Shown piece by piece: positions 9,801-40,893 of a stretch of 64,000 bases of DNA. A model generated the notes under the pieces. The model ran no database searches, was not told the DNA's origin, and saw nothing but the letters and a program-made list of their open reading frames with translations. The stretch is from Tubiluchus corallicola (Eukaryota; Animalia; Priapulida), in NCBI GenBank assembly GCA_030141605.1, contig JAQGDQ010000015.1, forward strand, positions 434,001 to 498,000. Direction: 5' to 3'. How positions within the stretch are numbered: the first letter of the stretch is position 1; each line of letters opens with the position of its first letter. The translations under genes and the position numbers were made by a program.

Positions 9801-10847
9801 TTATTTAAATAAAGAGTATTTTACTATAGAAAGAACGTTCATACTGATTATTGTTTATGGTTCTTTCAATTCTTGTTAATCAAAGTTTGCTTAGTTTGAT
9901 GGACATGACTATTGCCATATCATATTTTTGAGAAAAATAAAATTTATAACTCGTGAATATTTATTTACGAAAGAAGCGTTTGTATACCATGTGACAAATT
10001 ACATAGGTATGCACGAGACACGTGACGTATTTGCACGAATCGTAATTCATGGAATACCTTTCATCTTTACGCAACAGTCAGTAAATGGCATTCTGTTCAG
10101 TAGAAATATTAAAACCTATACAACAATATTCCTAACTATTTTCCAAACATGACCACCTACAACTAAAAAAATCGCTCCATTTTGTGAGTTGTGCTGCGTT
10201 TCCCGAAGGGCTAGATTTTTTTCTACAAAATGGCTCCCCGGCCGTGTGGCACTCCCATTTATCGATTTCAATGTTGTTATAAAAATAAAATATTTAATGA
10301 ACTGGACGTGGTTGCTACTAGCAACTGAGCATTTCTCGGGAAACCGGCGAGTGCGCGAGCCAGCGCTCTAGGAGCATAGTTACGTAACGTTCACTCCTTC
10401 GCTTACTCGCACGTTTCTATAGTAAAACTGACCTAGCTTACAAGCAGCCGTCTTGACAAAAAACATCAACTTTGCTCGGATAATGTAAACATGTGCCAGA
10501 TACGCGAAACACATTGGTTTACACGCAAGAAATTTATTTTTAGTCGCTGCCAAAACATATGCATGCGTGGAGAAATTCTTGCACACTTTTAAAAATACTG
10601 GCTTCCCAAAAATGGGAAGGGTGCAGTAATATCGGTGCCTAGCTGTTAAGCTGCGTGAGAAGAAGACGTTCATTTGTTTGGTTTTAGAGCTTCATTTTCG
10701 TACACGATAGGTTACTGGCTCGTTCATTTAGGATTTTAGGCCTTATTTTGCTGTTTTGCTGCGTTCTGTTGAATTTTCCTCTTTTATTCCAGATGTTCTG
10801 CTTTGTTACTCTGAACCTATATGCACTATAATAATCTGCTTTATAAT

Positions 10848-10892
10848 ATTCTGTTCTGTTCTATTCTGTTCTGATCTGTTCTCTTCTCTTCC
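10848..10892. repeat. (TTCTG)n microsatellite
   Basis: ttctgttctgttctattctgttctgatctgttctcttctcttcc. Confidence 0.8.
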
Positions 10893-13358
10893 GTTGCCTT
10901 AAAACTTTAACTGGGTTTAATATAAGATCAACCAGAGATATCGTTTTTTTTGCTATGCAACAACTTTTTTCTTTTTTCTGCCTCATTAATTCGCCTAGTG
11001 CAATATGCATGGCCGCACGACTTATAGCCTATTTGATCATGCAAGTGCAAGACCTCTACCAGATTTAAGCCCTCGAGTCTCATGACTGAGTGCATGTACA
11101 CAAATAAATTTAATCGAGATTAACACAAGGCCTACGCACTTCAATTTTGCGTCCAAAGTTTAACATAAATTAAACCATTTATTATTTACGACAATGTTAG
11201 GCATTGCAGCGATATCAGATCGGTTTCAGTATGTGCAACGACGGTGAGTTTTTCAAATTCAATATTAACATGTACCTTAAAATGTTTACCTTCTCGTTTG
11301 AAGAGCTTAAGTGTACCAGGGTTAGTCCTACGATCTATTTTAACCCTATAAGGTAAAAAGTGGGGCCTCACGGGATCTAAGTAGTTTACAAATTATATAC
11401 AACAAACTTAGTATTATACGTGATAGCCGAATTTTATGATGTCCTTATAATCTTTTAATGTTTGTTGAAAAAAGTAAACTGGATTTTATTTTAACTCAAC
11501 TATGTTAAGATTACACTGCAGAGTAAAAAAATTTAAACCAGACGTTCGATCTAACAACCTTCTCTGTACATCCCAAAAGTTAGTAATAACGCCGTTTAAA
11601 TTTTAGTTTACATGTTGTTTAAACAAGGTTATCAAATCAAATCACACCAAATCAATTTATTTCACTAGAGCAAAATATATACGCCATCAAACAAGACAAA
11701 CAGACTAAACACTATAAGAAAAAATTAATTGATGAAACTACATTAACCAAATAAAACAATTGCTGCATGACACCTTGAAAGCATGACTCGTTTAAGGCGC
11801 CATGAATGAGTGAATAAGAAATAGTTAGTGGACATGACAGAATGAAAAAATAGTTAGATTAGGGATAGGAAGAAAGAAAGGAAAAAGGAAACGACCACAG
11901 TGTATGTTTTAGTTACGCAAAGCTATATTGAAAATACCATAATATTATAAATAATGGGAGGGGGGCAGTCATTGTGACTGTGATGAGACATGGAAGCATC
12001 AAAGACTATCATATTTATTTTTATTTTATTAGTCAGTTCTATGGATAAAAAACAATTGGAGTACTACTTTCATGAGCTCATAATTCACAATTTAACGCCT
12101 ACATCACAGGAAATTACAGTAGTCTATCAGTAGATAAGCGGCTTTGTTCTACAAACACTTCAGCCACTGACCAGTGGTCAACTGATCGACTTGCATGCAG
12201 CTACGTACTACCCAGCGCATGTCGAAGCAAGAAAAATGTGGTCTGCATTTGATTTTCACAGAGTTCTACTTGTGGTAAACAAAACACAGTTAGTAAAAAC
12301 CGCATGCGGCAAACATGCCAAGCGACTCAAAAACACGTTTAAGCAATTTTCTGAAGTTTCCCAGTGAGTGAGAAAGGCACACTGGCTAAACAAAGCACGC
12401 CGGAACTCCATCTGGTTGCCCATTGAAGTCCAGTCCATGCCCGTTGGCTCTAAATTATCCATCTCAACAGCGGTCAGTGAAATTTTACCAAAGCAAAACT
12501 CTGCTATCAAATTGCAGGGTTTTGGGAGTGGTTTTATGCAACACAAAGAGTTGTTTCTAGTACAGCACTGTATTCGATTGTTGTAGGCGTTGTTGACAGG
12601 ATAGTATACAGTACTATTACCACTAACTTAAGCAATAATAGCATAATTATAATTATAAAAGATTACAAATCAGAAATTATATTATTGGACAATTTATTAT
12701 CATCTTTAACCAGCGTTAAAAATGCTGAATGCTGTATGAGGGATTCAAAATTATACAATCAATTTTAAATGGGTTATTCTTTATTTTAATTCTGCACAAA
12801 ATATATAAAACTCTTGAACATATACAAAATATAAAAAATACGTATAATTCTGAACAAGTAATACACTCGTTCAAACGTTTCAATAATATGCTTAAGTTTT
12901 ATTCATAGTACTTCAAGTTCCTCATAGAACTGTAATGCCAGTTGTTAAATTAATTTAACTTAATATTCAAGTTATAAATTAATACATTCTAACCCCATGC
13001 AATGCATTTAGAACAATTTTATTGATTTTTTTAATATTCTCAATTTTACATTGTAAGGGCATTAGATTGCAAAATAAAGACCACATCAGATAAGTTGGGT
13101 TAATGAAGTTTTAACTGCTTCAGCATTCGTTCATTTGTTTTACACTAAAAATTTCAAAAGACATTATTATTTTTAATTTATAACTATAACTTAAATACAA
13201 AGTAGATTTTTATCAATAGCAGAAATATAAGAAATGAAAAATGATATAAATATATTTGAAAAATTCTTGCAAATAATTGCAAAACCAGTTTGTGATTCAG
13301 CAAAAGGTTAATACATAAATTACACAGTGTAAATAAAATCAAAATTTTTAGAGTTTAC

Positions 13359-13455: not shown

Positions 13456-14874
13456 CTGAAAAAGTGAAATTATTTATCAACAACTATTTTCTGTATAAAT
13501 TCATAACTTTAAATGTTTGATATTACTATTTTTGTTTTGATGTCATGATTTTGATTTTTTTAAGTTTCTTTCTAAAAATCTGAACTCTGAAAATCGGAAT
13601 ATTGACAAATCTAAGGTTGACAGGAAAAATAATGTTAGGTTGATAGAGTTTAAATATAACGAGTTTCTTTAATAAATTGCAGACACTAATTTATTACAGT
13701 AATTTAGGTGCTAAGGAAACAGATGAATGGCTATTTGGTAAGAAATTAAGCAGCACTAGATCTGGTTAGAAAATAGATGGGCGATTGCTGGCCAAAACAC
13801 TTCTGGGTGGATTTATCTGTGGCACTGCCTCTGGACATGTATTTCGTTGAGGAATGCATATTCAATGAATGTATGCACACTTGAACGATGATGTTTTTTT
13901 TCACACATAAAACTAGAACACAGTTATAAAAGTAATATTATAAATGGGCAAATTTGGAGTGTACGACCAAGTGGTCATTTATACCCTCCCCTTAAATATT
14001 AGTTTGTGGTGCCTGTAGAAGAGTTATGTAACTATTATTACTATATTAATGTAACAAGAAAATACGTAACAAAAAAAATAAGAAAAGAACTGGCTGTATG
14101 CTGCCAGTTCAATGTCTGGTGTTAAGGAATCATGGTAATTGTTTCCACAACCTTTCAACATTACTTTCAGTGCATGGAAATGTGTAATGTAGAAATCAAA
14201 AGTGGCACAATATAAAATTATTATCCAAGATTATGAGCCAAAATAGAAGTTTAGTAGTTTAGCCAAAGTACAATTTTACAAATTTGTACGTGATTTCACT
14301 GAAATGAAGTAAACACGAATGAGCACAAGCAATTAAATTTATACTATTTCTGAAATAATAATAAAATTTAGTTGAAATTTTCCTAAATAACTATAAAACC
14401 GAAAATAATTAGTATTTTTTTTTTACTATTAAAGACATTTTATCATGTTCCATGCGTAGGTGTCATTTTTAATTGTAAACTAATTTTTAATTTAGTATCA
14501 GTTTAACTTACATAAAAGTTTTAAAACTGCTATTGCTCACTGAAACGTAGTATTGCTAACTAAACATAATAGTTCGAAAACCAGTTGCGCGTAATTCTTA
14601 TAATGAAAAGTTTCCTAGCTAGCCTTGCAATCGTATAGCTGCAGCACACATGAACACAACAATCAATCTCTGTTCCAGTTTTTTCGCGAGTCCGTCGACC
14701 GCAGCCCGCTAGCTCGTTCTATCTCTACCAAATACCAATTAACAGAAGAATTACTCAACTAACTTTATTTATTCGAAAAAAGTAAAATAAACCAGAAAAC
14801 TGTTGAAAGACTTACGCAGAGAAAAAAGTTACGCACAGACGTGCTGAAAATATAAAAACATAATTATTACTCAC

Positions 14875-14960
14875 ATAAAATGCACAACTGATAAAAAGCA
14901 GCTGATGGTTAGCGCTTCGCCATGTTTGCATCCCAACAGTCATTCGTTTGCGCTGATTGC
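14875..14960 (-). other. Probable first (non-coding) exon of the zinc-finger gene; start coordinate approximate
   Basis: Minus-strand donor |gtgagt at 14874 (alternative |gtaagt at 14815), next to promoter motifs; contains mini-ORF ATGGCGAAGCGCTAA. Confidence 0.55.
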
Positions 14961-15120
14961 GCATGCCTACACACTCATTCATAAAATAAACTATACCCCC
15001 TAAACATTTATGTTAGCTAGGTTGTGATTGGACAAACCCAACACGATGTCATTTCCGCTAGTGGGAAGCCATGATTAATCTCGTGTGTGGTGTTTATGTT
15101 TCGATTCTTCAATTTTTGGT
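14915..15120. promoter_or_regulatory. Bidirectional promoter
   Basis: YY1-like CGCCAT (14918-14923), NRF1-like TGCGCATGC (14958-14966), inverted CCAAT (15027-15031), TTTCCG; outward-facing splice donors on both sides (minus 14874, plus G|gtatgc at 15118); by eye the plus strand shifts from A-rich to T-rich around here. Confidence 0.6.
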
Positions 15121-18100
15121 ATGCTGAGTTCGTCTCCTATTTATAGTATTATTGAGTACCTTATAAACTTAAGTCCTAAACTTTTAATAACATTGAAAAC
15201 AGACTATCAATCCCACAAATGTACTAACTAGGACTATCTTCATTAGCGAAATAGGCAGATGTAAATTAGTGGCAGTTTTAAGGTACTACACTACAGAATT
15301 ATCAATGTACTTTACTGTCCAAATATGCGGCTTCTCCAAATCTATGGAAATTACATGCTTTATAATAGAAAGATATCAACCCTTTTGTCTTCAAGACTAA
15401 GAATCTAGAATTCTCAGACATTGCACTAAAATGCAATTAGGCAGTAGGCTGAGGTAAATGCAAGTTTAACCAGGTTTGGCGACATTCAGGTGTCATCTTT
15501 TTGCAAAGCGGCTTGCTGTTGGTCAACAAAACCCTGGTGCCTATAAGAAGAACTGTGTACTTGAAATATATGGTCAGTATCTTCAAATTCTAAATGTGAG
15601 AATAATAAACCTGGATTTGTACACCAGACTGTAATGTGACAAACAGGTCTGCTGCAGGGAACATATAGATGGAGCAAGACTGTAAAACACATCTTTATCT
15701 TTCACCCAAGCCATTAGCCTTAATTCATTAGATTGTGGATTCTCAATCAATGATCATGTAACGTTTCATTAGTTTGTGTTTTATGCTAGTTGTTCTTATA
15801 TGTGGTGTAATCCCTAAAACAAGATAGCTACTGATTATCACTCATTGCTCATATATGTTCATATACATTGCGTATAAAAATGGTAATAATTGTAATAATT
15901 TAAAAATCTATATTGTGTGACATGATACATTGAATTATCCAGATTAAATTTGACTTTTTGGAAAGAAAATGTAAAGTAAAAAACATAAGTATGGCAGCAG
16001 TATAGTTTCCTTTATGAAACTTTAAACTGCTACACTTTCCTCTTATCTAATTATTGTCATATGTATCTGCTATGCCTAACTATACCTCAAATTAATTACT
16101 GGAGCATGTAAAATATGTTCTGTACAGATTAATAATTCTGTAGAAGAGAAAAAATGCGCTGTTCATGTTGCTAAATGAATAAGAATAATGTCTGCAATAG
16201 GAGTTCAAACTTGTTTCAAGTGAAAAACTATAGTACTTATAGCACTCTCCATTAATAATCGTTTTTTCCTTATACTTTAAATAAACAAAAATGGATCAAT
16301 CTGGGGAATTATTTCAGTTTTAAGAGTCTTGTGTGACATAAAAATCTTCCTTTGACAATTGTGATGCTTTTACATTGACAATTGACATATTTGATAACTG
16401 ACAACTTGTCTGTGCCAGTAGAGCATGAAAAGCCAACTGTTCTAATCTTACTACTGCAGATATCTCTGCATCTAGCAAACAAGGTTCTGGTTTGAGTCCT
16501 ACCTAAGAACAGTTTTCACCATGGCAACCAGAAAAGTATTTCTTTTTGGTGGAAGAAACACATTCATAAGCCTATTTAATGATAGAGTCAAATTAAATAC
16601 TCGCATAGTTTCTTTGTTTTCAAAAATAACAAAAATGCAAATAAAACACTTCATTTAAATAGTCTCTGCATCATACAAAAGTACAAACATGTATGTATCA
16701 GTGATATGATCGCTATCAGTTTTTTAGCTATCAGTTCTTGCAGCTACTACTAGTCTCAGGGTTAAGTTTCTGCATCTATTAGTCTATTACATAAGCAGCT
16801 ATTTTGCTAGCAACTTCATTTTCCTGTGCAGTCAGTGGGGTGTCGAAAGGTGCGTATTAGAAAACTCACCTAGTACAAATATCTTCCCTCATTTGCATAC
16901 ATGGGCCATTTGGCGCAATGATGGTGGTAGGTAAAAATGAATTATTTTTGCTATAGCTAACTAGTTTTTTGGAAAAGTGACTTTGTTTCATAATTTATTT
17001 TATTATTGAATGCTGTAACTTATTTTGCTGTAGTAATCCAATAATAAATGCATAGATTTTTAGGTATACTCATTAAGATTACATAACTTCATTTTGAGTT
17101 TTGCTCTAATTATAGTAATTTATGAAGCTACAACTATTTTAACTAGTAATAACTATTTAATAGCACGGCTAATAGTGGTGGCAATCATATGATAGTATGC
17201 ATAAGAACTGGATTGAAGTACATTTATGTATTTATGCAAACAGAAAACTACAAAAAATAGTCACACAGAAATCACAAAAACCCAAAGAATTGCTTAAAAT
17301 TTCAAGTATATATATCTATATATAGATAAAGTCTACATACTTTCATATCTTTTAAGTTCGGTAAACTGACTTCGAAATGTTCTTTAAAAAAGCCTATCTT
17401 AAATCCTATGGGCATGTCAAAGATTAAGTTTCGGAAATCTTGGTTATTTTGGTTCAATGATGGCTCATGATTGCTCAGACTAATGATTGAGCCACTGAGA
17501 CATTTTTAAGAGCAAATTCTCTAGTACGAATTCTCATTATAGGACGTGTTTTACTATTAATTGGTTAACAAATGCTTGATCCACATAAAATGAAGTCAGC
17601 CTTAAAAGCTGGCATTGTCTTTTTAGTATTCAAATATTTCTACGAATATATTACAATACCAAAAAAATTAATCAATTCAAAATTCTGTTTAACTATAGTT
17701 TTTTATAAACATACAAGTTGGAAAATCCACGGGAATTGCTACTTGCTAAATACATTATTATTACAAGACTTGCACTCGTTTTACATGAAATATGAAGCTA
17801 ATTCAGCTATAGAACTACAATGATTGATGTGAATTAGACTGATTTCATTTTTTTCCTTGTCTGTCCTTTGACATATTTTTTGATATTTTGCACAACACAG
17901 AATAGCATCACCTTTACAATAGTCAAGTTAAAAGTGGTCAACACTCTCAACTGTGCAGACTTAATTATAGTAGTTTGTAGAAAGGCTGCAAAGGGGAGTC
18001 CATTATCAAGAGGAAACCTTAAAGTAAGTCATTTACTCGGATGTATATGTGTGGGTTATTTAATCGAATCCAGGATCGATTGTAGATATAATGTACTAGC

Positions 18101-21100
18101 AGGATTCATATAATGTATTGAAGCCAGCCCAGTTAGTGGCTTCATGTTCCACTTTTTATTGACTTGGTCATTAGTATGACCTAAACTGTTATAGTACATT
18201 GGTGAGCATATAACTAATCAATATTGGTTAATTTTGCTGCTTGTTTCGGTGGAGATAGAATATTATAGATGACATGTACCATTAAATACTTTATGCACTC
18301 CACATTGACTGACATTTAAATATTTAAACCAGATGCCTATCAAAATGATTTTCCATTAGTTGAGGTATCTATATATACATACATAAGAGGGTGGCAACCG
18401 TGTTAACTGGACTACATGGTGAATTACAACTAGTCGAATCACTTATAATCTTTTTTCTGATTGTGGATTCTTTAGCAGTTTTTGAAATTATTTTTTGAGA
18501 ATCCACTTTTTTGTCCATCATTAATTGGTAGTGTAATATATTCATAGAAATATTTGAATATTATAAATACAATGCCAGCTTTTTAGCCTGACTGTATTTT
18601 ATGTGCTTGAAGCAATTGTGCGTATAAATCAATTATATGTATAGACTTTTTTAACAAGTTGCTTTTCATTGACTGTTATGTACGTCTTATCAAAGTTTTC
18701 ATTTTGGTGTCTATACATTTTTATTTTTGTCAGATTTAGGACATTATTTTTGAATGTTGACTCTACGTTAATCCCTGTCATCATGAAATGTGCCCCTTTT
18801 GACACTGCCACATTGAAATAAATGACACAAGAGTTTATTAAAAGGCTTCAGGACATCAAAACTATACTTGTACAATACTCTTTGTTTAATAGATACACCT
18901 TATTTTTATTTGGGGTGCGATAAGTCGCACTTGTTTTTCAGAAGTGGAGTCGGTCCAAAAGGTCCATGCTACCCAACCTTTGTCAACCTAGGTCGAAATA
19001 AAAAACGTATGGAAATATATCCATTTTTCGCTTTATTGACAATAGTCATAAATATTAATGCCTGTTAAGTTCCTATCATGCATTGTAAGTTCCAGTGGAA
19101 ATGATATACTTAATATCATCAAAATTTTTAGACACCAGGCCTGTTTTTGATTTGCCATTTAGCCATTTTTCTAAGTCTAAACACTGTGCCAGGTGGATTT
19201 ACAAAGAGCTTGGATTTAATGAGCAGCGGATTTTCACTTGAGGTAAATTTTCTGATCTAACAGTAATGGCCACAATGACTGATTGGATTGTTTTATCAAA
19301 CATCAGCATTGTAGCATATAGTTATATTGCACAGCCTTAAGAACTTTTTAAAGAATTTAAACCCATGTCTGTGAAGTGAGCTCTGTAAAATTGGTTTTTA
19401 ATTGGGAAGGATAAGTAAAGCAGAAGTTAGTATGCACATGTGCACATATTTAGAGTGGACAGATATTTGAACCTTAACTCCCATCACACCAGCCTGGCAA
19501 TGTAAGAAAGACCTCACTGTTGCCTTAAAAACTGGCTAGGTCTCTGTCAGATCGCAAAGTCTTCTAAATCTTAGTAACAATGAAGCTGAAATGCTAAGGA
19601 CGTATTTTGGCCATGAAGGTCTTCATGTTTGCAGAAAACATTTGAACAGGTTCAAAGAATCAAATCTGCTGCTGAGAGAGCACAGACGGTATAGAAATTC
19701 AATATAGACGTGGTATGTACGTTGTAGTCATATTGTCCATCGTACTAAAGTTTTTATAAACATATATAAATTGAACAACTATTTCTGCTATGTATTGTAA
19801 ATTAAAATTTAATGTTTTGGTACACAAAAATAAATGGTTCAGCATTTAATATGAACTTTTGATACATCATATCTCTGAGAAGTATTCATCTAAAGTTATC
19901 ATAACTAAATTATTACTTGCAGTTATGATTTATCTAGGATAGTTTATGCAAATACATATTTGCCAGATCATCATTTTTATGTTTAACAGTGTTTTTTCGG
20001 TGCAAATTTTGCCAGCTAAGCCGTTTTGAATAAAAACGTGCAGTTTGCCAGGGCAAGTTTTAACCCTATTAGACAGATTTGTTTAAATTGGGCCCCACGC
20101 TAAGAGATGGATACTATGATGAATTAATGATTGCCCCTTGTGCATTAAGCTTCTTGATGCTGTAAGGGCAGTGAAATTATTCAACCCTTTTCTCGTATGT
20201 CAATGTTTTTTGCTGATCATTTCTTTATTTGTTTTGTAATTTCAATTTTTTGTCACCATTTACCTTTTTAAAAAAAGTAATTGGTGAGCCCTACATGCTT
20301 TAGTTAGATTGTAGTTTTTAATTTTACTAATTTATGGACCATATTCAAACCTTCAACACAGAAGGACTGCTGTTAATGAGATTATATAAAATAATGCGTG
20401 GGATATGATGTTGTATTGTTTGTTAAATATGTCCAAAGTGTACTGTTCTGCAGCATTTGTGGGGTAGAGAGCACCCACTAACAATTTTCTAATTGGGCCC
20501 TTCACTTCCTAGCACTTCTTTTATTTGAAGAGTGATATGTGCAGTAAATGCTGAAACCTTGCTTACATTCCTTAAATAAATTTGACTTATTGACATTAAG
20601 CAGATATATGTGTCTTGTTAGCATGGATTTCATATAGTAAGCTTACAAAAGTGTAACTGGTATACATCTAAATTTCAATTGCATTAAGTTTTGCTAACCA
20701 TACACTCTTTTCACTTACTACCTACTAGACCTGATTTTTGTAATTTCACAAACGCTATTCTTTTTGAAAATTGTTTGGGTATCTACTGGAACTTGTTTGC
20801 ATTTGATCACTATTTTTTGTGCAAATGAGTTGCTACAACGGAAAAATGGTATGTTCATAGTTCATGCTTCTCATCTTTATCCCTTCACATAAATCATGCT
20901 GCACATTGTATTCGTCGGCTGTTTTTTCATCAGTTGTGCTATTGTCTTCTCTATTAGATCTGTCAAATCACTGAATATCTGTAAAGGCTGTCGCTCTCTC
21001 CTCTTCTTAAATTAACAAATTCTGTACTGGTAAATTGCACAAAGTGTAGCTGTTGTTTGCATGGATTGTGCTGTGGGTAAAAAATCGCAACACGAAATCA

Positions 21101-24100
21101 GTGTGTAGACAAGGGCTCGAAACAACTGTGTCAATGCTAGATTGAATGCTAATCATAAAATCTGATGATAGTCACTTTGCTTGAATAACTTCAGTGAGGT
21201 GAGCAGGGCTTCCAAGAGAGTTTTGCAGATAGAATAGGATTGATTTCAGAAAAACCATTTGAGATATTTTTGTCAATAAACTACGTACATACATGAGACC
21301 TACTTACTTTAATCAGAAATTCGATATTTAATGCCAAACTAATATCAACTTCAGAAGTCGTTGACCTATCTGAATTATAATATTGCTTACCTCTTTCATA
21401 TCATTGGTTTGCATTTTTCGTCTTCTCTAAGTGTGTCTCCTGTCTAGTTGAATTTTATCAGTGTTTGAAAGAGTTTATAAGCCTCTGTAAAATACATTGA
21501 TAGTCACCTAATACGTCACGTTTCTTTATTTATTTAAAGGCGTTATGATCTTTGAAACTCAAAATCACTTTATCATAAGCACAATATTTTTTGTACCTTC
21601 AAAGTGTGTTTGAACTGTGTTTGACAATTTCAAACATTTATGGTACATCAGATAAAAAAAGTTTTATCTAACAGAGGTAATGAAAAGGTTACTTGTGACA
21701 TGTTTTTGCTTAGTTTAGTGTTTTGCCCTCATTAATCTTGAAATTTCTTCAGATTTTCATGAAGCTTGTAGTTTTCCATTGTAAAATGCGAACAAAGATG
21801 TAGTGACTAATGAATCTAATGTCTTTTTATAAAGAGGAAAGATGATGACGTAATTTATCTTTTTGATTTTTCTGTTTTAACGCGAATCATATATTGTTAG
21901 CTCTGAATCTGTGTCTTATACTTGTTGTAATATAGCTTGATGAAACTGGTTTAATAGTTTAATATGCCGGCAAGTTTCTTTTTGTTTTAATAGTTTGATA
22001 TCACAACCAAGTCATATGAACTTCATTACATCAGTCACTTGCATTGCTACCTGTCTTGTGGGCCAGATCCTTTGCATGTTAGGTAGCAGTAGCAAAGTGT
22101 GATTCTTTTTTTAATAGCACACCACAAAAATTAGTCAGTGCCTAAATCTTTGCAAAAGTGTAAGTGGGAACAATAATTGTCCGCATTTAACAGGCCACCA
22201 TTTTTTACTAAACAACGAAAAATTCTTGAGTACTTGATAGCAATCATAATGCATAGAAAGCCAAACTGAACAGCTGCAATTTTTTACTTCTTGAAATAAA
22301 AAGTAGTCATTCTTTCTTCTGAGTTTTTCATTACGTTGCTTGTGTTCTGTATACACATTAGAATTGGAAAGGGTCATTAGAGGTTGACCACTGGTTGATG
22401 ACTTTGACTTTTAATACATTATTATAATTTCTAGCTTTCTCATTGTATCCAGAACCTTAAAACTAGCTAGTTTTGCTAAATTTGGTGTATAACATTATAA
22501 GACATGATAAAATAATTTATATATTACCCATATAATTTGTATGTTCCTACATTCTTCATTTGTGTCATTACTTGCAGCCTGTTTATATGTCTTTGCAAAT
22601 TAAATGTGTTTATGGCGCAATTTATAAGAGCATGTGGTTTGAATTTATTACTGTTAAGTTGATTGCTTTTAAATAATTTTACGATTTTATCAGTAAATTT
22701 GCAAAAAATAAACATGAGGAACTATTTATTAAGTTATTGCTGGCTGTCTATGCTATAAGCATTGTTTTCAGAACATTTGGGCTCAGCAGGGTGAAAATTT
22801 AATGGCGATATAATAAAACATACTAGTTTGTTATGCCGAGCTCCGCAAACTGACAAGAGCAAGCTAATTCATCAAATTTGTCTCCAGGTTTCTCCCTGGG
22901 GGTTGGAATTTTTTCTCGCTGTCAAGCCTGTAACCCTTGGCCATTTTCATGAGAAATTCAGCGATTCAGTTAAATTTTGCCTGATTATTCTGTGTGCGTT
23001 TAATTAGTGTGAATGAGCATGAAGAATGGCTGAATGGTGGGAGAGGCTATCTAGGTGGGGATCCGAAAATTCAACTTTGAAAAAATATCCAACAAAGAGC
23101 TGCTAGGAAAAGGGGAAAAACTTGTACGTTATTACTAGAATTTCAAAAGAAGAATAAACTTCGCCCTCTAGGTTTTTTAAAGGATTTATTGTATGTTTTT
23201 CAATTAAAAGTACATGTAGGATGTTTTTGTTTGACTAGAATCCGTAAATTCTTTATAATGTGTAGTCTAAATCTTAGCAACCAGTCATATCAACTTGCAT
23301 TGAATTAATATTGTCCAGTAGGCACTGCCAGAAATTAAAGCTGAATGAACTGTAATCCTTTTTTATACTCTAAAAATTTTTGCTGTAGCTTTTCAAGCTT
23401 CAGTTGTTGACAAATGAAGAAATCAACAATATCCAGAATTGTTGATGCATTGTGATGGTTAACAAGAAAATCAATGGTAGTGTCGGTATTTAATGCTGCA
23501 ACTTTGTTGATGTGTTTCATATGATTTATTAATTTTTGCCTTTATTGTCGAAAACTGGTTGTCACTCTATAAATAACATAAGTTTTTCAGACACTTATTG
23601 TGATGTAATGTTTGAGTCACTGTTCTGGTGCTTCTTCCTTTATTTCACTTATGTATACATGTATTTTGAATTGTTGCTACTTTGCCTCTTTGGGTTAAAT
23701 TTCCTGGACAAAAAAGTTATATTTTAAATGCAAGTATTTTATAACCTGAATAAGCTAGTACCTAAGATTTCTTACATCAAACATTATTTTCACATTGTTT
23801 TCAACACTTTTTTGTATAGCCAGTTAAAGAGGCAGTGTAACCGTAATTCATGGTGTATATATTTGTCAGATAAATATTTTTATTTTTATTTTGGTTCCCA
23901 CATCCTATATCCTTAGCAAAGTAGTGTTCCATGTAGGTCAAAGCACCACAGGCCATATGAACACATATTTTGGTGGTCCTTTGACCATCCACCATGTAGC
24001 CTGCTGCCTTTTCAGTATTCAGAATTCTTTATTTTCTATTCTTTTGTAGCGGTGAAGATTACAAGCTTTGCTCAAACGAAATGGTAATTTAATTACAGGA

Positions 24101-27100
24101 CAAGTTGTGAAATTTGTAGGTAAGTTTGTTATAAAAGCTTTTTATTATTTAGTTTGATTTTTACTTTGCTTTATTAATAATTGTTAATTACATTGGCTTT
24201 ACTTAGTAGGTGTAGCTGATGATTTGTTTTATGTAGTATGAATTATGATAATGTATGCTGTTGAACAATTTCCAATTACATCTTTTGTAATATTTTATGG
24301 GTAAATTTGGTTGATATTGTAATTTTTTTATATTTTACCCCGCAGTACAGAACCGTTAGTTACCAGCAAAAATTTCAGCAATGTGTGGATTATTTTTTGG
24401 CAATCATGGTTTAATTTTACCCCAGGATGTTATTGTGCTCACCTTTTTATGCAATATGCAATGCAAGTATGCAATACAAAGTGAATGAGGTAGATGGAAC
24501 ATATAAAATGTAGCAAGTTCTAAGTCTTGCAAAATGGAAAAAACAATGTTATAGTACAAAGTGCAGAATTTAATACAAAATGTAGAAAACACTGTATACA
24601 TGCAGTATACCCTGCCACCACAACTATATAATATACGATGGCAGTGATGGTGGTAGTGGTGGTAACGGCGGCAGCAGCAGTGATGGTTTTCATTATGTAG
24701 TTTCGTCGCATCAGTGTAGTGACACAAGTGCAAGGTTTGAAGGAGCACCAGCTTATGGTGCTTCCATTTTCGTCAATAGATGCCACTATCTTGTGCATAT
24801 TGTACTATTACCTGCATTGGTTACAACAAGGCTAGTGGCCTCCATGTACTAAAATTATTAACATACTAACAGAAGTCATTGTACTGCAAGGATGGCTGCT
24901 AAGTAAACAAGTTAATGGGGAACTAGCGGCTGGCCATCAAATTTTTATGTTCGCCCTATTGATTTTTTTACCATTTTTATGCCCGCTCTTTATGTTACGA
25001 GACTGTACGCTTGTCAGCCTGTCAGAATTATATGGTTATTAAATGGCTTCCAAAGGTTCTTTACAGGCCGTGGCCAGTTCGAGGTGGCTACGTGGCAGTA
25101 GGGCGCTAACTAATTAAAAGAAATCTTGGGTCCCTACACGCAGTGTCCTAGAGTGGTTACTTTACTTTGTTGGGTTGAAAATTATGTTAGTGTCGTAGTT
25201 GTTAGGGTAGCTTTTGGTTATTCGTAATTTTGGAACCGCCCGTTGAGGAGTTTTTGATGATAGATTGTTCCCGTGATTCATGTAAAGTCACGGCGCTTTC
25301 GCGTTAAACAAAAACTTGGCTTCGGTTATAATTTTCTGCTTTCCCTGCATCCGAGGGCTTCCCTAGCGACAGGGGACACCAGTGCTCTTGCAAACCTTGC
25401 TTTTTACTTCTTATTGTAGGTATCTTGCAGGCTTCGGCACTGTTCCGTACCATTGCGCCTCATTAGAGAGGATTGAAATACCGGACGATAGTGCATATGC
25501 ACGCCACCTCTACCTCGACTCCCCCTTGTCGCTCTCCCTACACTTTGAAGAAAAACAGCTGCCGGCTGCACTTAGCAGGGAGGAGACATTATAGCCTAAC
25601 ATGGAGTCCCATCGATTGATTTGCCTGTTTCTGGAACATTCGAATTGTGGCAGAGCCACTCCACATTTTACATTCTATAAGGGATCGATTACGAGTTTTT
25701 TCTGGCTTGTTTTTTTTCCTCTGGCATGAGAAAATGCTGTCCGTGAACTGTTCCATATATACATAGTATTTAATGTTGCTAAAGTTATTATTCACAATGG
25801 TTCTGGAATTGGCATGATTATTATGATGTAGTTATGTTATGATTCTGTGAAAGAACAACTTTGTAAAGTCTTTAGTCTTCTAAGAGGACGTACAGTTTCA
25901 TTTTGTACTGCTGCAATAAAAATATCCGTACCTTGAATTATAGTAATTATTATCATGACACGGTTAATCTCTGATATTGAACATAAAACTGAGATACCTC
26001 CTTCAGTTCTGTGGCTCATCTTAGATGCATAGCCTTGATAATAAGAGAGTCCAAGTCTCGCTACGAACAGTTGAAACAGTTGAACATCTAATTTGAGTAG
26101 GAGCATGGCGTTGAATGCGCAAATTCCAAATTGTGAAAAAAATGGAAAGATAACATAATCTGGATAATTTATGATAATAATACTAAGTTTATTGTGTATC
26201 AGCTTTGAAATGATGGGACGAGCCCAATGATGACGATGAGCCATTTTACGATATTATTATGACAAGTGAATTAAACACGTTGAGCCAAATATTCTAGCTG
26301 TTATAACAGTGACCCTGTTTCCCAATGGTCATTGACTCAAAACCAAGATTATGTGTTTTTTTTGGGCATTTTCCTTTTCATCGGTCGAATTTTATCTATT
26401 CACTAAAAATGCGCCATAACGCCGATGATGCCCTTACATTTAACTTTTTATATTTTTAATTTTTACCTTTTAACTTTTATATCTATTAGCTAAATTGCTC
26501 GCTTATACACCTTCTTGTGTGCGTGCCCGTACTTTGTGCACTTGTCCTTGTGCATAAAGGAGATTGACATTAGTGTGTGTACTCCTAGGATTAAACCCTT
26601 TCTCTCACCTGTGTTCTAACCGAGTTTATGCTGATTAACTTTCCTTATCAACAAGTTAATTTGGGGCGCAGTTCTTAGTCAACAAAGAATTTTCTCCTGG
26701 TTTAGTGAGCAAATTTACTTGCATCTGTAAACAACAGCATTTGTATGTTTTAGCATATAATAACCGGTGATGAAACAAAACTTAGTCCAGTTTACTTTAC
26801 TATCAGTTTTAGGTACTAGCTAATTATTCGCATGCTAAAATAACCATGTTACTGCTTTTCTGAATTTCCTGCAATTATATGCTTAAATATATATATATGT
26901 AGTGTGTAAAAGATGTAATAGTTATTATATAAAAAGTTACTATATAAGTAATCATGATTTTAGGTTCTTAACTAGGGCATGAAAAGTGTACGGTTATAGG
27001 TGTGGGCAACAAGACAGTTTTCTTGTACTCTGTACAGAACTCGGACGGAGGCAAAATTAATAATTTTTGTTATAAAGCTGCTATGAAGAATATGTGCCAT

Positions 27101-27225
27101 TTGATAATTAAAATACTGCTACATTCTGTAATATACGCGTGATTCATTAGGAATGTTTCACGGCAAAAGTACATTATAAAAATTTTATGGTGTGTGTTTT
27201 TTGCTTGTCTAACAAAAATAAATAA
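15060..27225 (+). ncRNA. Candidate spliced lncRNA / small-RNA host gene
   Basis: AG..GT-bounded segments: first exon ending 15118, 17901-18023 (cacag|..|gtaagt), 19132-19242 (tttag|..|gtaaat), exon ending 19712 (|gtatgt), 24050-24119 (ttttgtag|..|gtaagt), terminal segment from 24346 (ttttaccccgcag|) to AATAAA 27217-27222; no protein-like ORF; many hairpins. Confidence 0.45.
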
Positions 27226-27239
27226 CACGGAATGCAACA

Positions 27240-27450
27240 GTCACCGGAAGTTACAATTTTTGATCACCGGAAACGGAGGACTTTTGCCGAGCCTATGACA
27301 GAAAACGGTTCAAGAAAAGTTCAAATTTATTGTCTGATTTATTGCGTTGCTGATACATTGCTGTTTGCTTTTGCGTTGACGAGTTTGATAAGAAAATTTA
27401 ATCAAGCAAAAAAGTCAACAGAGACCGGCTTGTTTTATGGCGACCTTAAC
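27240..27450 (+). promoter_or_regulatory. Probable promoter of CAAP1
   Basis: Tandem ETS/GABP sites CCGGAAGT (27244-27251) and CCGGAAAC (~27267), YY1-like ATGGCG (~27437), local CpG enrichment; strong downstream donor CAG|gtaagt at 28186. CAAP1 coding exon 1 begins with an acceptor, so an upstream UTR exon is required. Confidence 0.5.
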
Positions 27451-29559
27451 AGACATTTTAATCGCCAAGTGGGACATTTTAGTGTGGACCACCTGCGACT
27501 AGGTTCTAATCTTAAACTAAATTAAAGAAAAATTTGTTGCTGCGCTCAACTGATAGTTCCTTCGGGACTGTTGAAATTATACAGCCATAGACGAGATTAA
27601 ACTGATTACAGTCGTAATGTTTCAACCTTTGTCGTTAATTCTTCGGGAATTAGTTAACCGTTGATTAGAATATATAGGCGTCATTGTGCGCTTTGCGTGT
27701 TTTTAAATGTCAAGATTATAGGTTTGGTATAAGTGCTGTCAGTTTTTAATTTGTAATATACATATCTTATTTTATTTCGGTGGTATAGGGCCCTATATAG
27801 AGATTCGAGGCTACTGCTCCCAGAATGACATCACTTTTCGCGATCTGTATGTCAAACGAAAGGTCTCGATCCAGTCCTTTACCATTGGGGGCTTATTTTT
27901 TTGCATTATTGCACAATACATCTGATTTCTGCATAATTAATTGCACAATTTTGTACATAATTTTGCACAGTACTAAAATATCCACATTTTGATGAAGTCC
28001 TATTAGTTCGGTTTTGGTTAGCGTTTCTCCTATTATTGTTGTCGACAATAAAGTAACCGTGCAATAATCAGTTAAGAATTATGTACGTACAATTGAATTC
28101 ACTGCTGTTTACTTTCAAAGTAATATAATTTTGCTTTATGTTTGTTTACAAACACAGAATATAAGCGATAACTCAGTAAACAGCAGGTAAGTTGTAAACA
28201 AAATGCGGCAAACAAAGTTCAGTTGTAATTTAGCGTGTTATCGCCCTGTAAGGTGAATAGATTTGAGAGATAAGACGCATTAAGGGGTCGGATTAGCTCG
28301 TTAACTCCCGCCCAGGTACCAAAGAGTAAACATTCTGAGACAGGTGTAGGGGTTATGCACTTAGTTTGTAAAACTATGCGACGCATCTTGCTCATGATAC
28401 AGTACTAAAATTCGTTAAACAGCTAAATAAATGCATTTGTAACTTTAGAAGAAATCGCTAATTAAGCTTCCTGCTTTTTTATTCCCTGCTTTGGTTGAAG
28501 GACTAATACCATCCAAATTGAGTTTCGAATTAGGACTGTCTGTCCTTTCGTCAGCCCGCACATTTTGTTTATAACTGCTTGTAACTTTTGGCTGGTGAAT
28601 TTAAATACTTGCATTCCGTTACGACTTTGTCCTGTGGTCAAATTGATAATGCCAGCAGACATACAGCGCAAGCCAAAAGCAAATTTAATGTATTATAGAA
28701 TATCCATGAAGTCTACACATGCAGTAAATATATCATTTGATGAGAGCGGCTCCAAACCTGTTCAAATCGTATTTTTTTAAAATAGAAATTGAAATTAAAC
28801 AAGGTAATATATAAGAAATTAAAAATGTTAAATATGTATACATTATTGACTTTTGTGCCATTTCTATGAGAATTTGTTGTGGTGCACTAAAATATTTTCT
28901 ATAGTTATTTGGAACAATCGTGTTTTTTTATTTTGGGTTTATGTAGTTATTTATGCAATAGCAGAGTTGCAGTGTGAAATCAGCATTTTCATAAAAAAAG
29001 TTCACCTTTGTGTTATATTTTCATTCGTGAAAATGTAGCGATTTAATTTCAGTTAATTCCGAACTAAATTTGAAAAAATAAGCCAATTGATTATATCAGT
29101 ATTAAATTAGGATAACTTCACTTTTTGTCGAATCATGTTTAAACTGCTTTTAGAAACTTAGTGAACACTTTCCAGTTGGCTTCTAAAAGCGAATTTTGGA
29201 CTTGCCGCATCCTGTTATTAACGCAAAATAAGGAATTATATTTAAAACGATTCAATGGTTGTCTGAATATTGACGGACAGGTGGACAACGTGTTAGAAAG
29301 AACTCCCATTTCATGCTCTAAAAGTCTAAGTTATTAATTTCCACCAGAAATTCGAGTGCATGAAGTTCATCATAGGTTCTAGAGTCCTAGGTCATACGGG
29401 TATGACGTTTAATGTTGGTCTCTGTGACTAGGTTAAATATTATATTGCATTTCTCAGTTGATAATTATCTATACTCGGAGATTGTATTTTTACATTAGAT
29501 ATATTACGCCTCCTCCCTTGCACAGTCTCGTACATATGTATTACATAACTAAACTGCAG

Positions 29560-29740
29560 CGGTCTTATTCACCGCCTCTTCGTTTTATCTTCATCACTGT
29601 AAGCTAAGCCTTATATCCATGAACAAACGGTTAATTTATCTGCACCGCCTCGTGATCGGCAGCAAAAACCGACCGGCGGATGCAAATTATTCCGTTCACG
29701 GAAGCTGCACGTAATGGAAAACGAAATGGTGAACACGAAA
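29560..29740. mobile_element. Palindromic MITE-like element
   Basis: TTCACC..TTCGTTTT at left vs AAAACGAA..GGTGAA at right; inner TGCACCGCC vs GGCGGATGCA. Confidence 0.4.
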
Positions 29741-29987
29741 ATTAACGAGGGAAGTGACCCAGATAAACTGAAGAGCAATTAATCCAGTTTACCCTGCGGA
29801 CCAAAACCTGTGTTGCTCTGCAGAATCTTACCAGGTATGGGAAAAAGAAAAGTACATGCGGTTTCAGACGAGGATCAACTTCCGTCGTTTAACCATAGTA
29901 TTGTGACGTAGACCCGGTTTATTTTAGACAAAACTGCTCTTTGAAATGTAGGTTTTTCTCTATAAGATGTTTCTGATTCACATTTGA

Positions 29988-30102
29988 ATAAGGAAGCAAA
30001 AGGAGGAGGGAGACAGCGAAATTAAGAGAAACGGGATAAAAAGAGAAACAGAGGACGGAGAAGAAAGAGAGAGGGACAGAGAGAAAAAGGGTGAGAGAGA
30101 GC
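29988..30102 (+). repeat. Purine-rich (AG) low-complexity tract
   Basis: Near-pure A/G run; source of the spurious minus-strand S/L-rich ORF. Confidence 0.8.
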
Positions 30103-33037
30103 TTTGAAAATGAATAGGTGTAGGTTTTATTCATGAAGTGCTTGTTTAAATATCAAACTTTGACACTTTGAGGATAAATTAAAAAATGGAGATGAGAGTA
30201 ATTTTTTGTAGTGATTGTATAGTCGCACTCTTCTCATATCTGCATTCTTTATTTTGGTTTCACAAGGTTATATATTTAGACATTCTGACAGCCAGAAAGA
30301 TTACTACGTGTATTGGTATTTGACTTTCCGTGACTACCTACCATAGGCGATCTTAGACTGCGTGTCCGCCAAATCCAGAGTGATCCGTACTAAGGCGACC
30401 GTTTTCGTCTGTTTTCGGGTGAAAAGTTTCCGTTCTAAACACATTACATCGAAATCAATAGGTTTGAACTTTTTATGTGTCCACTGCTTTCGCACAAAAT
30501 ACGTTTTTGGTATGCCAAAATAGATTTTTCGATGTGACAGAATTTTTACGGACATTGCGGACAAAACATTCTCGTGTACATTAGCACGTGACCATTATTA
30601 AATATCGTCAAATGTATCAAATTATCTGTGGACAAGGCCATCTTTAATTCTGTGCAAAGCGAAAGGGCACTTTGTGTTAAAACTCCCGCAAAATAGGGAT
30701 TTTGTACTGCCACCTTAGCTGAAGCCAGCACAGAACTTGCGGTTGATGGTTCTGTTAATTAAAATAGGAAATCTAGTAGTTGCTTAACGTAAAAGTACAG
30801 CACTGAACATTAACATTGAAGTGTAGAAGCCAAACATTTAATAAAAGAGGCGACACAAATGTCGTAAATTTCCGTGTGTCCGTAAATGTCCATATAACTT
30901 GAGATGTATCCGTATTTGGTGGATACGTAGCCTCAACGAGGGTACAAGTGGAAAAAATCATTAAAGATGCGAAACGGATAAATAAGATCTAGGACGCGTC
31001 CCGTATCTTCTTCGTAGTACAAACGAGACTTTTGATGTCTTACATTTGACTTTGCGTAGACCTTTGTTCACATCTTAGGCAAAATTGAAATGAATGGCAG
31101 CCAAAAAGTACAGTATAAGTCCTTTAACTTAAATTGTGAGTACTTTTACCACGAGTACTCTTTAAATGACACTACATAATTTATGTACCACGCGTTGACG
31201 GGTTGAATATAGTGAACGCCGCCAGTAAAACAGCCTTCACTCACTTGAAATTGAAACATGCTCACGGTTTTGCCCAATGATCGATGTGATCTTAATGTGC
31301 ATGTGCATTGAATTTGTAAATTGTGCCGTAAAGTACATGTAAAAAGAAACGAGACAAGTTTGTTGCATACTGTTAATGCACATTGGCGATGGCTGGACTT
31401 TGAAGTCTGGCGGTAAAAGTTTAATGTAAAACGCGTGTTTGACTTTATGCTTCGGCTAAACTCGAATTGATTGATTCGTTTAACTTCTCCGCTTGACTAG
31501 CGTTTACCTAAAGCCGAAGTAATGGCTTTCCTTGAAAAAGGGTACATTCTCTTTGTTTTAAAATCGCAACTTACACTAATTCTTCGACTTTCTTGACGTA
31601 ACGTATCGTGAGGATATACCAGAGGGACGTATTTACTAGGTCTAGGTCCTATTTACAGCACGGACAGCACTGCAGCTCTTAGTTTAAGTGGCGTGATATC
31701 TCCAGAAACTCATGTACTCTCAAATTGAATCCTGTAAATGTACTCTAAATGTAAACAGTAATACTGTGCACTACATGTAATGTGCTTAAAAGATTTTTAC
31801 TTTGTCATTACTAATCTACATTCATGAGACCATAGGAGCATTGTGAATTTCAAATGACATTTGCAGTGCTAAAGCGTGCTATGTAAATAGAGGTACCAAT
31901 CATTGCAATTTTGTCAACATGTTCGAATCTGTTTGGTCCTGAAATTTTGTACTTTGTATACAAAAGATGTATAAACTCATAATAAAATATTTAGAAGTGC
32001 TAACGGTGAAAGGATGTTATGATAATGGTTATGGCTAATCTTTTCATAGTTTAGTGCTAAACATTGGCTGGAAAAGTCAATTATAGTACTGGCAATTGTC
32101 AGGCTTGCTGAACTAATTATGAATCAGATTAACTGGCTTCACAAATCATTTCACTACACTGGGCATTTCAGCGGTAGTACGCTGTGCTAATTTAGGTTTA
32201 TATTACAAAATGACACTCGCATTTCGGTCGAAATGAAGACAGTCAGTATTGCCTTAATGATAGTGATTTTATAAATTTTACATACTGTAGTTTATTTTAT
32301 GTTAGCTTTATTCATTCATTCACTGAATTTTATGGTACGTGAATTTCAAAGCAAAGGCTTATTCTTTATATAAAAGAACGCAAAATAATAAGTTAATTGG
32401 AGATCATTTATTTTGCTTTTTAATTTTTATACTCTAGACTTGTAAAGCACTGGTGGAAATGCCATTAGTACATTTATAAATTCGAGTCGTTTTTGAGAAG
32501 GCTACAATATGAGATAGTTTCGCTAAACTATTAAATTTTTTTTTTATGAACGAAATAAAGCGAAAAAAATTTAATGCGTTTAAAAACTATCGTCAAGAAA
32601 CTTTTATCTTCTTAATTTTTTTTGAGCCATTTTATTACTGGTCTTCTTCGATACGTTTTCGACCGAAGCTCATTCTAGCGAGCAAAATGCGAAACACCTT
32701 GATCGAATCTACTTGGCAACAGGCAAATTTTGCTTTTTCTAGACTTTTGACTGTTAGATTAGAGTTTTTGTTTATTCCACTATCAGTACATCTGGTTTCA
32801 AGGTTGAACAGCTTATAGAAATGCCAGGTTGTTTACACTAACTTAGGGTATGTCTGGATAGAAAAATAGTAAACAAGGTTTTATCTTGTGTATGAGTTTG
32901 CGAAATGCGTTTCAGTGGGAGTTTATCACACAAAGTTCATGAAATATTTACATTTATATTGAGTAAACAAAGGTTTTGTATTAGTCCTTCGAACATTTTT
33001 GACGTAGCGTCATCTATAAGTTTATCATTCGGAAATT

Positions 33038-33169
33038 AAACAGTTACAATAGCCGTTGAGAATATCATCATTTTACTGAAGATTAGTTTTAGTCAGTTTG
33101 AACGTTTTGCAAACTGACTGAAGCTAATCTTCAATAAAATGATATTCTCAGTGGCTGTTGTAGCTGTTT
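33038..33169 (+). repeat. Long near-perfect inverted repeat (60-position stem, 9-nt loop); candidate RNA hairpin
   Basis: Arms pair with 6 G-T wobbles, one C-A mismatch and one 3-nt bulge. Confidence 0.9.
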
Positions 33170-33558
33170 TATCGGTTTGCCACCATAACAGTTTATTTTT
33201 ACGTTAGTCGTTATTTCATCCCATCTAATTAACAATGGAAATTACGAAATAATAAGTGATTATTTGAAATTAAAGTAAGTGATACAATTATCCAGGTTGT
33301 GATGGCTTTAGCGTTACTTTAATTAAAAAATTGTTTATTTGATAAAAAATTGAAATTAGTACCTTAAATATTCGAAAATTCAAAAATGTGGAGTTTATAA
33401 AAGGCATCATGTGTAAATAAGACCATGAATCCTTCGATGGTAGAGGCAAACTATTTTGTAATAGATCGATGGTTGATTTTCAAATGCTAATTCTTTATTT
33501 CGATTTTTTAAAGAATATACGGACAGAGGTATTGCGATGCACCTACAAGGAGAGTGGT

Positions 33559-33837
<279 letters not shown>

Positions 33838-37452: not shown

Positions 37453-37524
37453 GTTCTAAAGGTTTTTGTAATATTCTTACTATTGGTACTACTGTTACTG
37501 CTTTGTTATTGCCTAATCTGAAAC

Positions 37525-40700: not shown

Positions 40701-40893
40701 GTGAACACTGAACAGAACGGTTATAGCTGAGTAATGATTTATCTATTAATAAAAACGTTACTTTCTATAGTATTTATCTATTTATATCAAATAAACTTAT
40801 AAGAATCAGTTTTTATTTTAGAAAAGTGCAAGGAACAAGAAATTTTTGTAACAAACGCAGAGTACTATGTACGTTACTGTACCATTATTTAAG

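What the first reader, a model, noticed from the sequence alone, without database searches (positions are those of the whole stretch)
15060..27225. Candidate 12-kb spliced lncRNA packed with structured domains between the ZF gene and CAAP1
Seen: at least five AG/GT-bounded non-coding segments, a long terminal segment ending at AATAAA just before the next promoter, few recognisable transposon remnants compared with neighbouring introns, and a series of multi-stem folds on the + strand (listed separately). I recognise no known RNA family. Inference: an undescribed structured lncRNA or snoRNA/scaRNA host gene, the best candidate here for a new system. It could instead be an extended CAAP1 5' leader.
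Basis: partly seen in the sequence, partly recalled or inferred. Interest (0 to 1): 0.75.

Follow-up and report, generated by a model that had tools for sequence, protein, structure and literature searches.

The report
Ordinary divergent transcript, not structure-packed RNA
The 12-kb gap between two animal genes folds no better than ordinary introns and matches no known RNA family; its base composition suggests it is likely a long-transcribed, likely non-coding unit read away from a shared promoter, which is a common arrangement.

Summary
The headline claim fails. Folding z-scores across 15060-27225 match neighbouring introns (120-nt windows: mean 0.006; 4 of 102 below -2, against 17 of 257 and 8 of 118; p=0.45-0.49). 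Rfam, tRNA and snoRNA scans are empty. AG/GT-bounded segments are as dense on the minus strand, and the 27217 AATAAA is one of 16 and sits at the CAAP1 promoter. What is real: CpG o/e 0.38 (about 1.0 in neighbouring large introns), a plus-strand T>A skew from 18000 on (16 of 18 blocks), and bidirectional-promoter motifs at 14900-15060. These point to an old transcription unit diverging from the upstream gene. Best exon: 24050-24119, likely spliced to 25420. The one strongly non-random RNA structure is a 95-nt inverted repeat (17568-17662/18525-18619) around a candidate exon. A 57-codon frame (25421-25594) has no homologue and borderline coding statistics. Splicing could not be tested directly. 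Verdict: likely an ordinary promoter-divergent spliced non-coding transcript (0.5); orphan small-protein gene 0.22; CAAP1 leader 0.13. The scan's index showed no earlier finding on this or look-alike DNA.

The parts
14900..15060 (.). CpG-normal, likely bidirectional promoter with YY1-like (14918), NRF1-like (14959), CCAAT (15027) and ETS/E2F-like (15053) motifs; motif consensuses recalled
   Evidence: CpG o/e 1.15 at 14500-15100 and motif positions; minus-strand first-exon candidate with a GTGAGT donor near 14875
15060..15118 (+). candidate first exon (start not mapped); ATG at 15071; moderate donor
   Evidence: donor score 6.2; inference only
15150..24500 (+). CpG-depleted, TpG/CpA-rich block resembling a methylated gene body
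   Evidence: 92 CpG seen, 242.5 expected (o/e 0.38); TpG 1.28, CpA 1.31; p=3e-12 against the pooled large introns
17568..17662 (+). left arm of a 95-nt inverted repeat
   Evidence: 86% complementary, E=3.7e-25; duplex -101.5 kcal/mol; closes the fold of 17540-18650
17901..18023 (+). candidate exon inside the inverted repeat (alternative acceptors 17959, 17981)
   Evidence: donor 8.0, acceptor 4.7; unverified
18525..18619 (+). right arm of the inverted repeat
   Evidence: no further copy in the window
19132..19242 (+). candidate exon (alternative donor 19192)
   Evidence: acceptor 3.5, donor 8.0; unverified
19635..19712 (+). candidate exon (alternative donor 19688)
   Evidence: splice-only 16.5; unverified
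20030..20520 (.). dispersed repeat, likely a MITE-like remnant
   Evidence: many diverged contigs and loose ends in run X1; a short piece also in X2
24050..24119 (+). best candidate internal exon (alternative donor 24083)
   Evidence: acceptor 9.6 plus donor 10.2 = 19.8, highest of eight regions
24950..25750 (.). CpG- and GC-rich island with no sign of other copies, unexplained
   Evidence: CpG o/e 0.87, TpG 0.99; one X1 contig over 25522-25847 with 0 differences
25420..25935 (+). candidate terminal exon; holds a 57-codon open frame without ATG (25421-25594) and AATAAA at 25915
   Evidence: acceptor 9.9; terminal-exon score p=0.024 against 500 shuffles; no homologue
27217..27222 (+).

Best explanation
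The region is likely an ordinary spliced, non-coding transcript made from the promoter it shares head-to-head with the upstream minus-strand gene, and it has no more RNA structure than neighbouring introns. Polymerase II would start near 15060 and run on the plus strand through a few short exons (best supported 24050-24119) to a terminal exon at 25420, likely ending after the AATAAA at 25915 rather than at 27217. Long-term germline transcription would explain the gene-body-type CpG loss and the T-over-A skew. In a path built from seven of the better exons, the frame from the first ATG ends in the fourth exon (113 codons), so that RNA would be a nonsense-mediated-decay substrate. Any role would more likely come from the act of transcription (keeping the shared promoter open, or running towards the CAAP1 promoter) than from folded domains. 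The 95-nt inverted repeat is predicted to pair in the pre-RNA and would favour skipping of the exon it encloses. Shown: composition, motifs, background folding, the inverted repeat. Inferred: transcription, exon chain, 3' end, decay, function.
For: CpG o/e 0.38 in 15150-24500 resembles the exon-dense CAAP1 body (0.47), not the large introns (0.93-1.06). CpG o/e tracks gene-body methylation in polychaetes (PMC10414810, passages). T>A in 16 of 18 blocks of 500 nt from 18000 to 27225 (mean 0.104, se 0.017): same sign as CAAP1 (24 of 31), opposite to the minus-strand gene (8 of 28). TT/AA 1.46; intronic TT excess on the non-transcribed strand is tied to transcription and seen across invertebrates (PMC8002178, passages). 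The promoter motifs belong to the set enriched in human bidirectional promoters (PMC10887517, passages). No Pfam family reached its cut-off in 150 of the 155 frames of 33 aa or more. The open three-exon chain is chance-level (28% of 150 shuffles; 5 of 17 control windows).
Against: All evidence for transcription is indirect. The first 3 kb (15060-18000) has no skew (3 of 5 blocks; TT/AA 0.95). The minus-strand gene's promoter-proximal intron is also CpG-poor (0.43), so depletion may mark old DNA in a methylated domain. Exon density is not clearly above control. The terminal segment scores as the best coding-type terminal exon of eight regions (30.8), and the best ab initio gene chain on target + (96) beat four non-coding controls (71-76), which favours a protein. 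The CpG island at 24950-25750 is not explained.
Confidence: 0.5

Rival explanations
1. A lineage-restricted small-protein gene (about 90-146 aa) whose last coding exon is 25420-25594, with a short 3' UTR to the AATAAA at 25915.
For: Strong acceptor (9.9) followed by 57 open codons at 52% GC; terminal-exon score p=0.024 against island shuffles; 6 legal splice paths join ATG 15071 to this stop; a methylated gene body usually marks protein genes (PMC4378273, passages); one of five single-sequence AlphaFold models reached pLDDT 72.
Against: No homologue among 1.84 billion representatives other than bacterial-type BspA leucine-rich-repeat proteins matching a short motif (43 hits; two of them scanned, both LRR_5). 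None in two word-indexed searches, Pfam or PDB sequences. Coding score alone p=0.06 and frame length p=0.19. Only 6 of 1152 paths reach the stop; all need the weaker donor 19192 and skip the 19635 exon. The strongest junction, 24119 to 25420, leaves the frame without an ATG. The other four models had pLDDT 42-49.
Confidence: 0.22
2. An upstream alternative promoter and long multi-exon 5' leader of CAAP1: transcripts from 15060 splice on to CAAP1's small non-coding exons.
For: Same strand, and the skew continues up to the CAAP1 promoter. CAAP1's start is at 35522 (a 91% identical spliced relative begins at the same Met), with small candidate exons upstream of it such as 28158-28186.
Against: CAAP1 has its own CpG-normal promoter with ETS-like and YY1-like motifs at 27244-27437. 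A leader on the seven-exon path would carry 19 ATGs. No donor scoring above 7 lies between 24119 and 26766, so 25420 looks terminal.
Confidence: 0.13
3. No stable transcript: old intergenic DNA inside a methylated domain between two housekeeping-type promoters, with pseudo-exons only.
For: Exon-like segments are as frequent on the minus strand; no skew in the first 3 kb.
Against: The skew over 18000-27225 is stronger than in CAAP1's own introns (0.104 against 0.067). Invertebrate methylation is higher in genes than between them (PMC10414810, passages).
Confidence: 0.1
4. One reading: a lncRNA packed with functional folded domains, or a snoRNA/scaRNA host.
For: A few windows fold well: 25250-25650 z=-2.76 (0 of 100 shuffles) and 20990-21270 z=-2.43 (3 of 200). 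At 400 nt, 4 of 30 target windows fall below -2 against 1 of 30 control windows. Hairpin density is 2.85/kb against 2.2-2.6/kb. Rfam covers this animal group poorly (own knowledge), and many functional RNAs are not folding outliers.
Against: No shift at 120 nt (p=0.45, 0.49) or 250 nt (3 of 49 below -2, against 8 of 61 and 3 of 56). Control introns reach z=-4.6. Three outlier windows fell to z of -0.55 to -0.88 when refolded with other limits. Rfam: 0 at gathering, only sub-threshold rows otherwise. C/D candidates 0.24/kb in both target and control, all three with an imperfect C box and 150-170 nt long.
Confidence: 0.05

Closest known systems
Promoter-divergent lncRNAs from bidirectional promoters (e.g. 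GATA6-AS1; PMC10887517, passages read)
   Same: Head-to-head with a coding gene; promoter carries NF-Y-, NRF1-, YY1- and ETS/E2F-like motifs; multi-exon and without a recognisable protein.
   Different: No transcript shown here; gene-body-type CpG loss is stronger than I would expect for a weakly expressed lncRNA (inference); it runs to within 1.3 kb or less of the next promoter.
snoRNA host genes (GAS5/SNHG, Drosophila Uhg; features recalled)
   Same: Short exons with stop codons, housekeeping-type promoter, predicted nonsense-mediated decay.
   Different: No intronic C/D or H/ACA RNA was found.
Reverse-complementary matches flanking skipped or circularised exons (C. elegans zip-2; PMC8330042, abstract read)
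   Same: An inverted pair in the two introns flanking one candidate exon (17568-17662 and 18525-18619).
   Different: Here the exon is unverified and only 43-123 nt; conservation untested; the pair may be the ends of an old DNA transposon or a local inverted duplication.
Structured lncRNAs (Cyrano, MALAT1, COOLAIR; named in PMC8564735, passages read)
   Same: Only the size class and lack of a known protein.
   Different: Those rest on probing and comparative support; here folding is at background and no alignment exists.

Membership tests
Promoter-divergent lncRNA | Transcribed, over 200 nt, from the opposite strand within about 1 kb of a coding gene's start | tested here: inconclusive
   Geometry, motifs, CpG loss and skew fit; no direct transcript evidence was obtainable
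Promoter-divergent lncRNA | No translated protein | tested here: inconclusive
   No family or homologue, but the 57-codon terminal frame is borderline
Promoter-divergent lncRNA | Spliced at the predicted junctions | not testable with these tools
   Needs RNA reads; sequence scores single out only 24050-24119 and 25420
Structured lncRNA | Folding stability above dinucleotide shuffles and above control introns | tested here: not met
   weak contrary trend at 400 nt
Structured lncRNA | Covariation across species | not testable with these tools
   No orthologous DNA could be fetched
snoRNA host gene | Intronic C/D RNA with RUGAUGA and CUGA boxes and a terminal stem | tested here: not met
   4 perfect C boxes on +, none among the stem-closed candidates; 3 imperfect candidates at control density
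snoRNA/scaRNA host gene | Intronic H/ACA double hairpin | tested here: inconclusive
   0 in target and 0 in three controls with a strict descriptor and no positive control; Rfam empty
snoRNA host gene | Guide complementary to rRNA or snRNA | not tested
   No candidate worth testing and no rRNA of this animal in hand
Selenoprotein gene | In-frame UGA | tested here: inconclusive
   One hand-picked six-exon path has a single internal UGA (codon 114 of 190); no long frame with TGA read as U looks protein-like
Selenoprotein gene | SECIS element in the 3' UTR | tested here: not met
   0 hits in 25590-27240 with a simple pattern-and-pairing scan, no positive control

The most novel reading that the evidence does not exclude
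An orphan protein gene of about 190 codons in six exons (15071-15118, 17901-18023, 19132-19242, 19635-19688, 24050-24119, 25431-25594), open except for one UGA at 24053 that is read through without a canonical SECIS, with the 95-nt inverted repeat switching an in-frame 123-nt cassette exon in or out.
Probability: 0.04. Interest if true: 0.55.

Novelty: new member of a known kind. Interest (0 to 1): 0.12.

Why it matters
On the best reading it matters little: divergent non-coding transcripts at shared promoters are common. It would be a modest annotation gain, an unrecognised transcription unit whose CpG loss suggests long germline expression. It would matter more if the terminal frame proved translated (an orphan protein in a methylated gene body) or if the inverted repeat proved to control exon choice. 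Nothing here supports a new structured-RNA system.

Tried and rejected
Expression data: no RNA holder listed. Run X1 covers 29-30 of 30 bins including introns, so it behaves like genomic DNA, and its joints (all in the 20082-20475 repeat, none GT..AG) say nothing on splicing. Run X2 laid only 1-2 contigs, on that repeat, and none on the neighbouring genes' first exons, so it is uninformative. No whole genome is held. Metagenome scan with the 57-aa frame: 595 pattern matches, none confirmed. The phmmer hits to BspA leucine-rich repeats were rejected as a chance short motif in highly repetitive proteins. ESM Atlas: no usable hit for the 57-aa frame, and only 0.81-0.83 hypothetical clusters for 19132-19242. 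PDB sequence searches: 0 and 0. Structure searches of the 57-aa model: Foldseek best E=2.6; VIA-align best Z=3.7 of 48161 chains; the 75-aa model had pLDDT 55. tRNA/tmRNA: 0. U12-type introns: one 5' site (23907), no branch point; about one is expected by my estimate. Considered by eye from recalled features and dropped: antizyme-type frameshift at 19147 (the shifted frame stops in the same exon), telomerase RNA (a template-like 8-mer on the minus strand near 25205 folds at z=+0.9), RNase MRP, 7SK, pre-miRNAs (hairpins at 21034 and 22033 are no stronger than control hairpins), and thioredoxin-like CxxC proteins. The CAAP1 coding join had a boundary error, fixed; the codon scores are not used. 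Splice matrices and amino-acid frequencies in my scripts are recalled approximations, not trained models; they recovered the CAAP1 3' exons. Homologue searches for frames other than the terminal one were limited to Pfam, PDB and the Atlas.
Full report
Setting. The window is AT-rich animal DNA (GC about 0.33). A minus-strand gene has a candidate first exon near 14875-14930 and a coding exon at 1-375; I could not confirm its 'ZF' label (no Pfam family). CAAP1 is confirmed: two exons match PF15335 (E=1e-12 and 3.8e-07), eight exons from 35522 to 60822 give one open frame of 787 residues, and a 91% identical spliced relative begins at the same Met. Unreviewed notes on other pieces of this genome suggest a priapulid; I did not test that. 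Priapulus caudatus is predicted to have a full DNMT set and DNA methylation (PMC8821070, passages).

Structure claim. Rfam gave 0 matches at gathering score over the whole window and only sub-threshold rows in three permissive scans (1, 3 and 4 rows, best E=0.51). With 120-nt windows against dinucleotide shuffles, the target has mean z -0.01 (203 overlapping windows). On non-overlapping windows 4 of 102 fall below -2, against 17 of 257 in CAAP1, 8 of 118 in the upstream gene and 5 of 102 on the target's minus strand (p=0.45, 0.49, 0.81). At 250 nt the counts are 3 of 49, 8 of 61 and 3 of 56. Hairpins of 18 bp or more occur at 2.85/kb against 2.2-2.6/kb in four controls. Of eight hand-picked stretches refolded with 100-200 shuffles, two kept z near -2.4 to -2.8 (... 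see below) and five did not; the eighth, 17540-18650, was too long for shuffles. The two are 25250-25650 and 20990-21270, picked after looking, and control introns reach -4.6. The region is therefore not packed with structured domains. This test cannot exclude a single small functional RNA.

snoRNA host. Three stem-closed C/D candidates (0.24/kb, the same as in CAAP1) all have imperfect C boxes; a strict H/ACA scan found none in target or controls and had no positive control. No tRNA.

Splicing claim. The segments exist. An approximate model that recovers the CAAP1 3' exons finds 10 exon-like segments on each strand of the target and 0.59-0.70/kb in control introns. On splice scores alone the target has 8 pairs at 15 or more (6.6 per 10 kb; seven controls 2.1-6.0), and 24050-24119 is the best of all eight regions by a narrow margin (19.8 against 19.1). 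The next strong acceptor is 25420 (9.9). The AATAAA at 27217 is one of 16 on the plus strand, has only 23% T downstream and runs into ETS-like motifs of the CAAP1 promoter; 25915 has 40% T.

Repeats. Run X1 shows a dispersed repeat at about 20030-20520 and a short one at about 26006-26049, but much less repeat depth than flanking bins. Self-comparison of the window finds one pair in the target: a 95-nt inverted repeat, 86% complementary, E=3.7e-25, with a predicted duplex of -101.5 kcal/mol and no other copy in the window. It encloses the candidate exon ending at 18023. Flanking reverse-complementary matches promote skipping and back-splicing in C. elegans (PMC8330042, abstract), so skipping is the expected effect if the exon is real. 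Old transposon ends are an equally simple origin.

15150-24500 has 92 CpG against 242.5 expected (o/e 0.38) with TpG and CpA excess, like the exon-dense CAAP1 body (0.47) and unlike the large introns (0.93-1.06) and promoters (1.09-1.15). In oyster and polychaetes methylation concentrates in gene bodies of housekeeping genes and is mirrored by CpG o/e (PMC4378273 and PMC10414810, passages). From 18000 to 27225 T exceeds A in 16 of 18 blocks, the sign seen in CAAP1 and the reverse of the minus-strand gene; TT/AA is 1.46, the direction expected for the sense strand of introns (PMC8002178, passages). The first 3 kb lacks the skew. The promoter carries YY1-, NRF1-, CCAAT- and ETS/E2F-like motifs (consensuses recalled), the set enriched in human bidirectional promoters (PMC10887517, passages). 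Together these make a plus-strand transcription unit likely, but they do not show it.

Is it coding? No Pfam family reached cut-off in 150 of 155 frames of 33 aa or more (best E=0.002, below cut-off). An ab initio chain scored 96 on target +, 71-76 in four non-coding controls and 278 on the CAAP1 control; the excess comes mostly from 25420-25594. That segment has the best terminal-exon score of eight regions (30.8; next 30.3), p=0.024 against 500 shuffles of its GC-rich surroundings, but its coding score alone gives p=0.06 and its length p=0.19. It has no homologue: 43 phmmer hits were long proteins matching a short motif, and the two I scanned were BspA repeats; two word-indexed searches gave nothing. 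Only 6 of 1152 enumerated splice paths join ATG 15071 to its stop. An open chain through the first three internal exons (96 codons) is matched by 28% of 150 shuffles and 5 of 17 control windows. One six-exon path has a single internal UGA, but no SECIS-like element was found downstream. A protein stays possible (0.22) and is not supported.

Mechanism and comparison. The most likely picture is a promoter-divergent spliced RNA without a functional protein, probably decayed by NMD, whose role, if any, lies in transcription itself. It works like known divergent lncRNAs; membership is unproven because transcription and splicing were not shown. It fails the test for a structured lncRNA and for a C/D host. 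A literature search for CAAP1, lncRNA and upstream returned 20 papers, of which I saw the listing of 12, all on human or livestock topics; that is my only search for a prior description, and I read no supplements. The scan's own index held nothing near, by words or by sequence.

Verdict. Observation partly confirmed, interpretation partly supported, headline refuted. Interest 0.12.

Noticed in passing
window 24950-25750: CpG- and GC-rich island (o/e 0.87) inside otherwise CpG-poor DNA, with no sign of other copies and no ETS, NRF1 or YY1 motif; a helix between about 25364-25374 and 25524-25535 spans the 25420 acceptor. Could be an enhancer or an internal promoter.
   Followed up: partly
window 27290-35521: CAAP1 appears to have several small non-coding exons before its ATG at 35522 (e.g. 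28158-28186 with a strong donor), with an ATGGCG at 27437 that may open an upstream frame.
   Followed up: partly
window 40894-41616 and 49752-52377: Broken LINE-type reverse transcriptase frames inside the large CAAP1 intron, with an inverted partial copy 84% identical; the LINE label is my reading of the translation.
   Followed up: no
window 59533-60822: CAAP1 ends in a 1290-nt acidic exon, giving a 787-residue protein, longer than I recall for vertebrate CAAP1.
   Followed up: no
window 12256-12627: A 123-codon minus-strand frame in the upstream gene's first intron, with no Pfam family for the 74 residues scanned.
   Followed up: partly
window 33570-33835: Long GA microsatellite.
   Followed up: no
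window 59245-59282: Short telomere-like repeats next to an inverted repeat at 58941-58987/59324-59371, possibly a transposon remnant.
   Followed up: no
window 2000-12000, 28400-33400, 37500-49500 versus 52500-61500: Within single genes CpG o/e switches from about 1.0 in large repeat-rich introns to 0.3-0.5 around exons, so CpG o/e is a handy marker of old genic DNA in this genome.
   Followed up: yes
protein P0045: The only CAAP1 relative returned is a 140-aa spliced form that ends just after the third coding exon and has a few odd substitutions; it could be a transcript fragment of a relative or a processed copy.
   Followed up: partly
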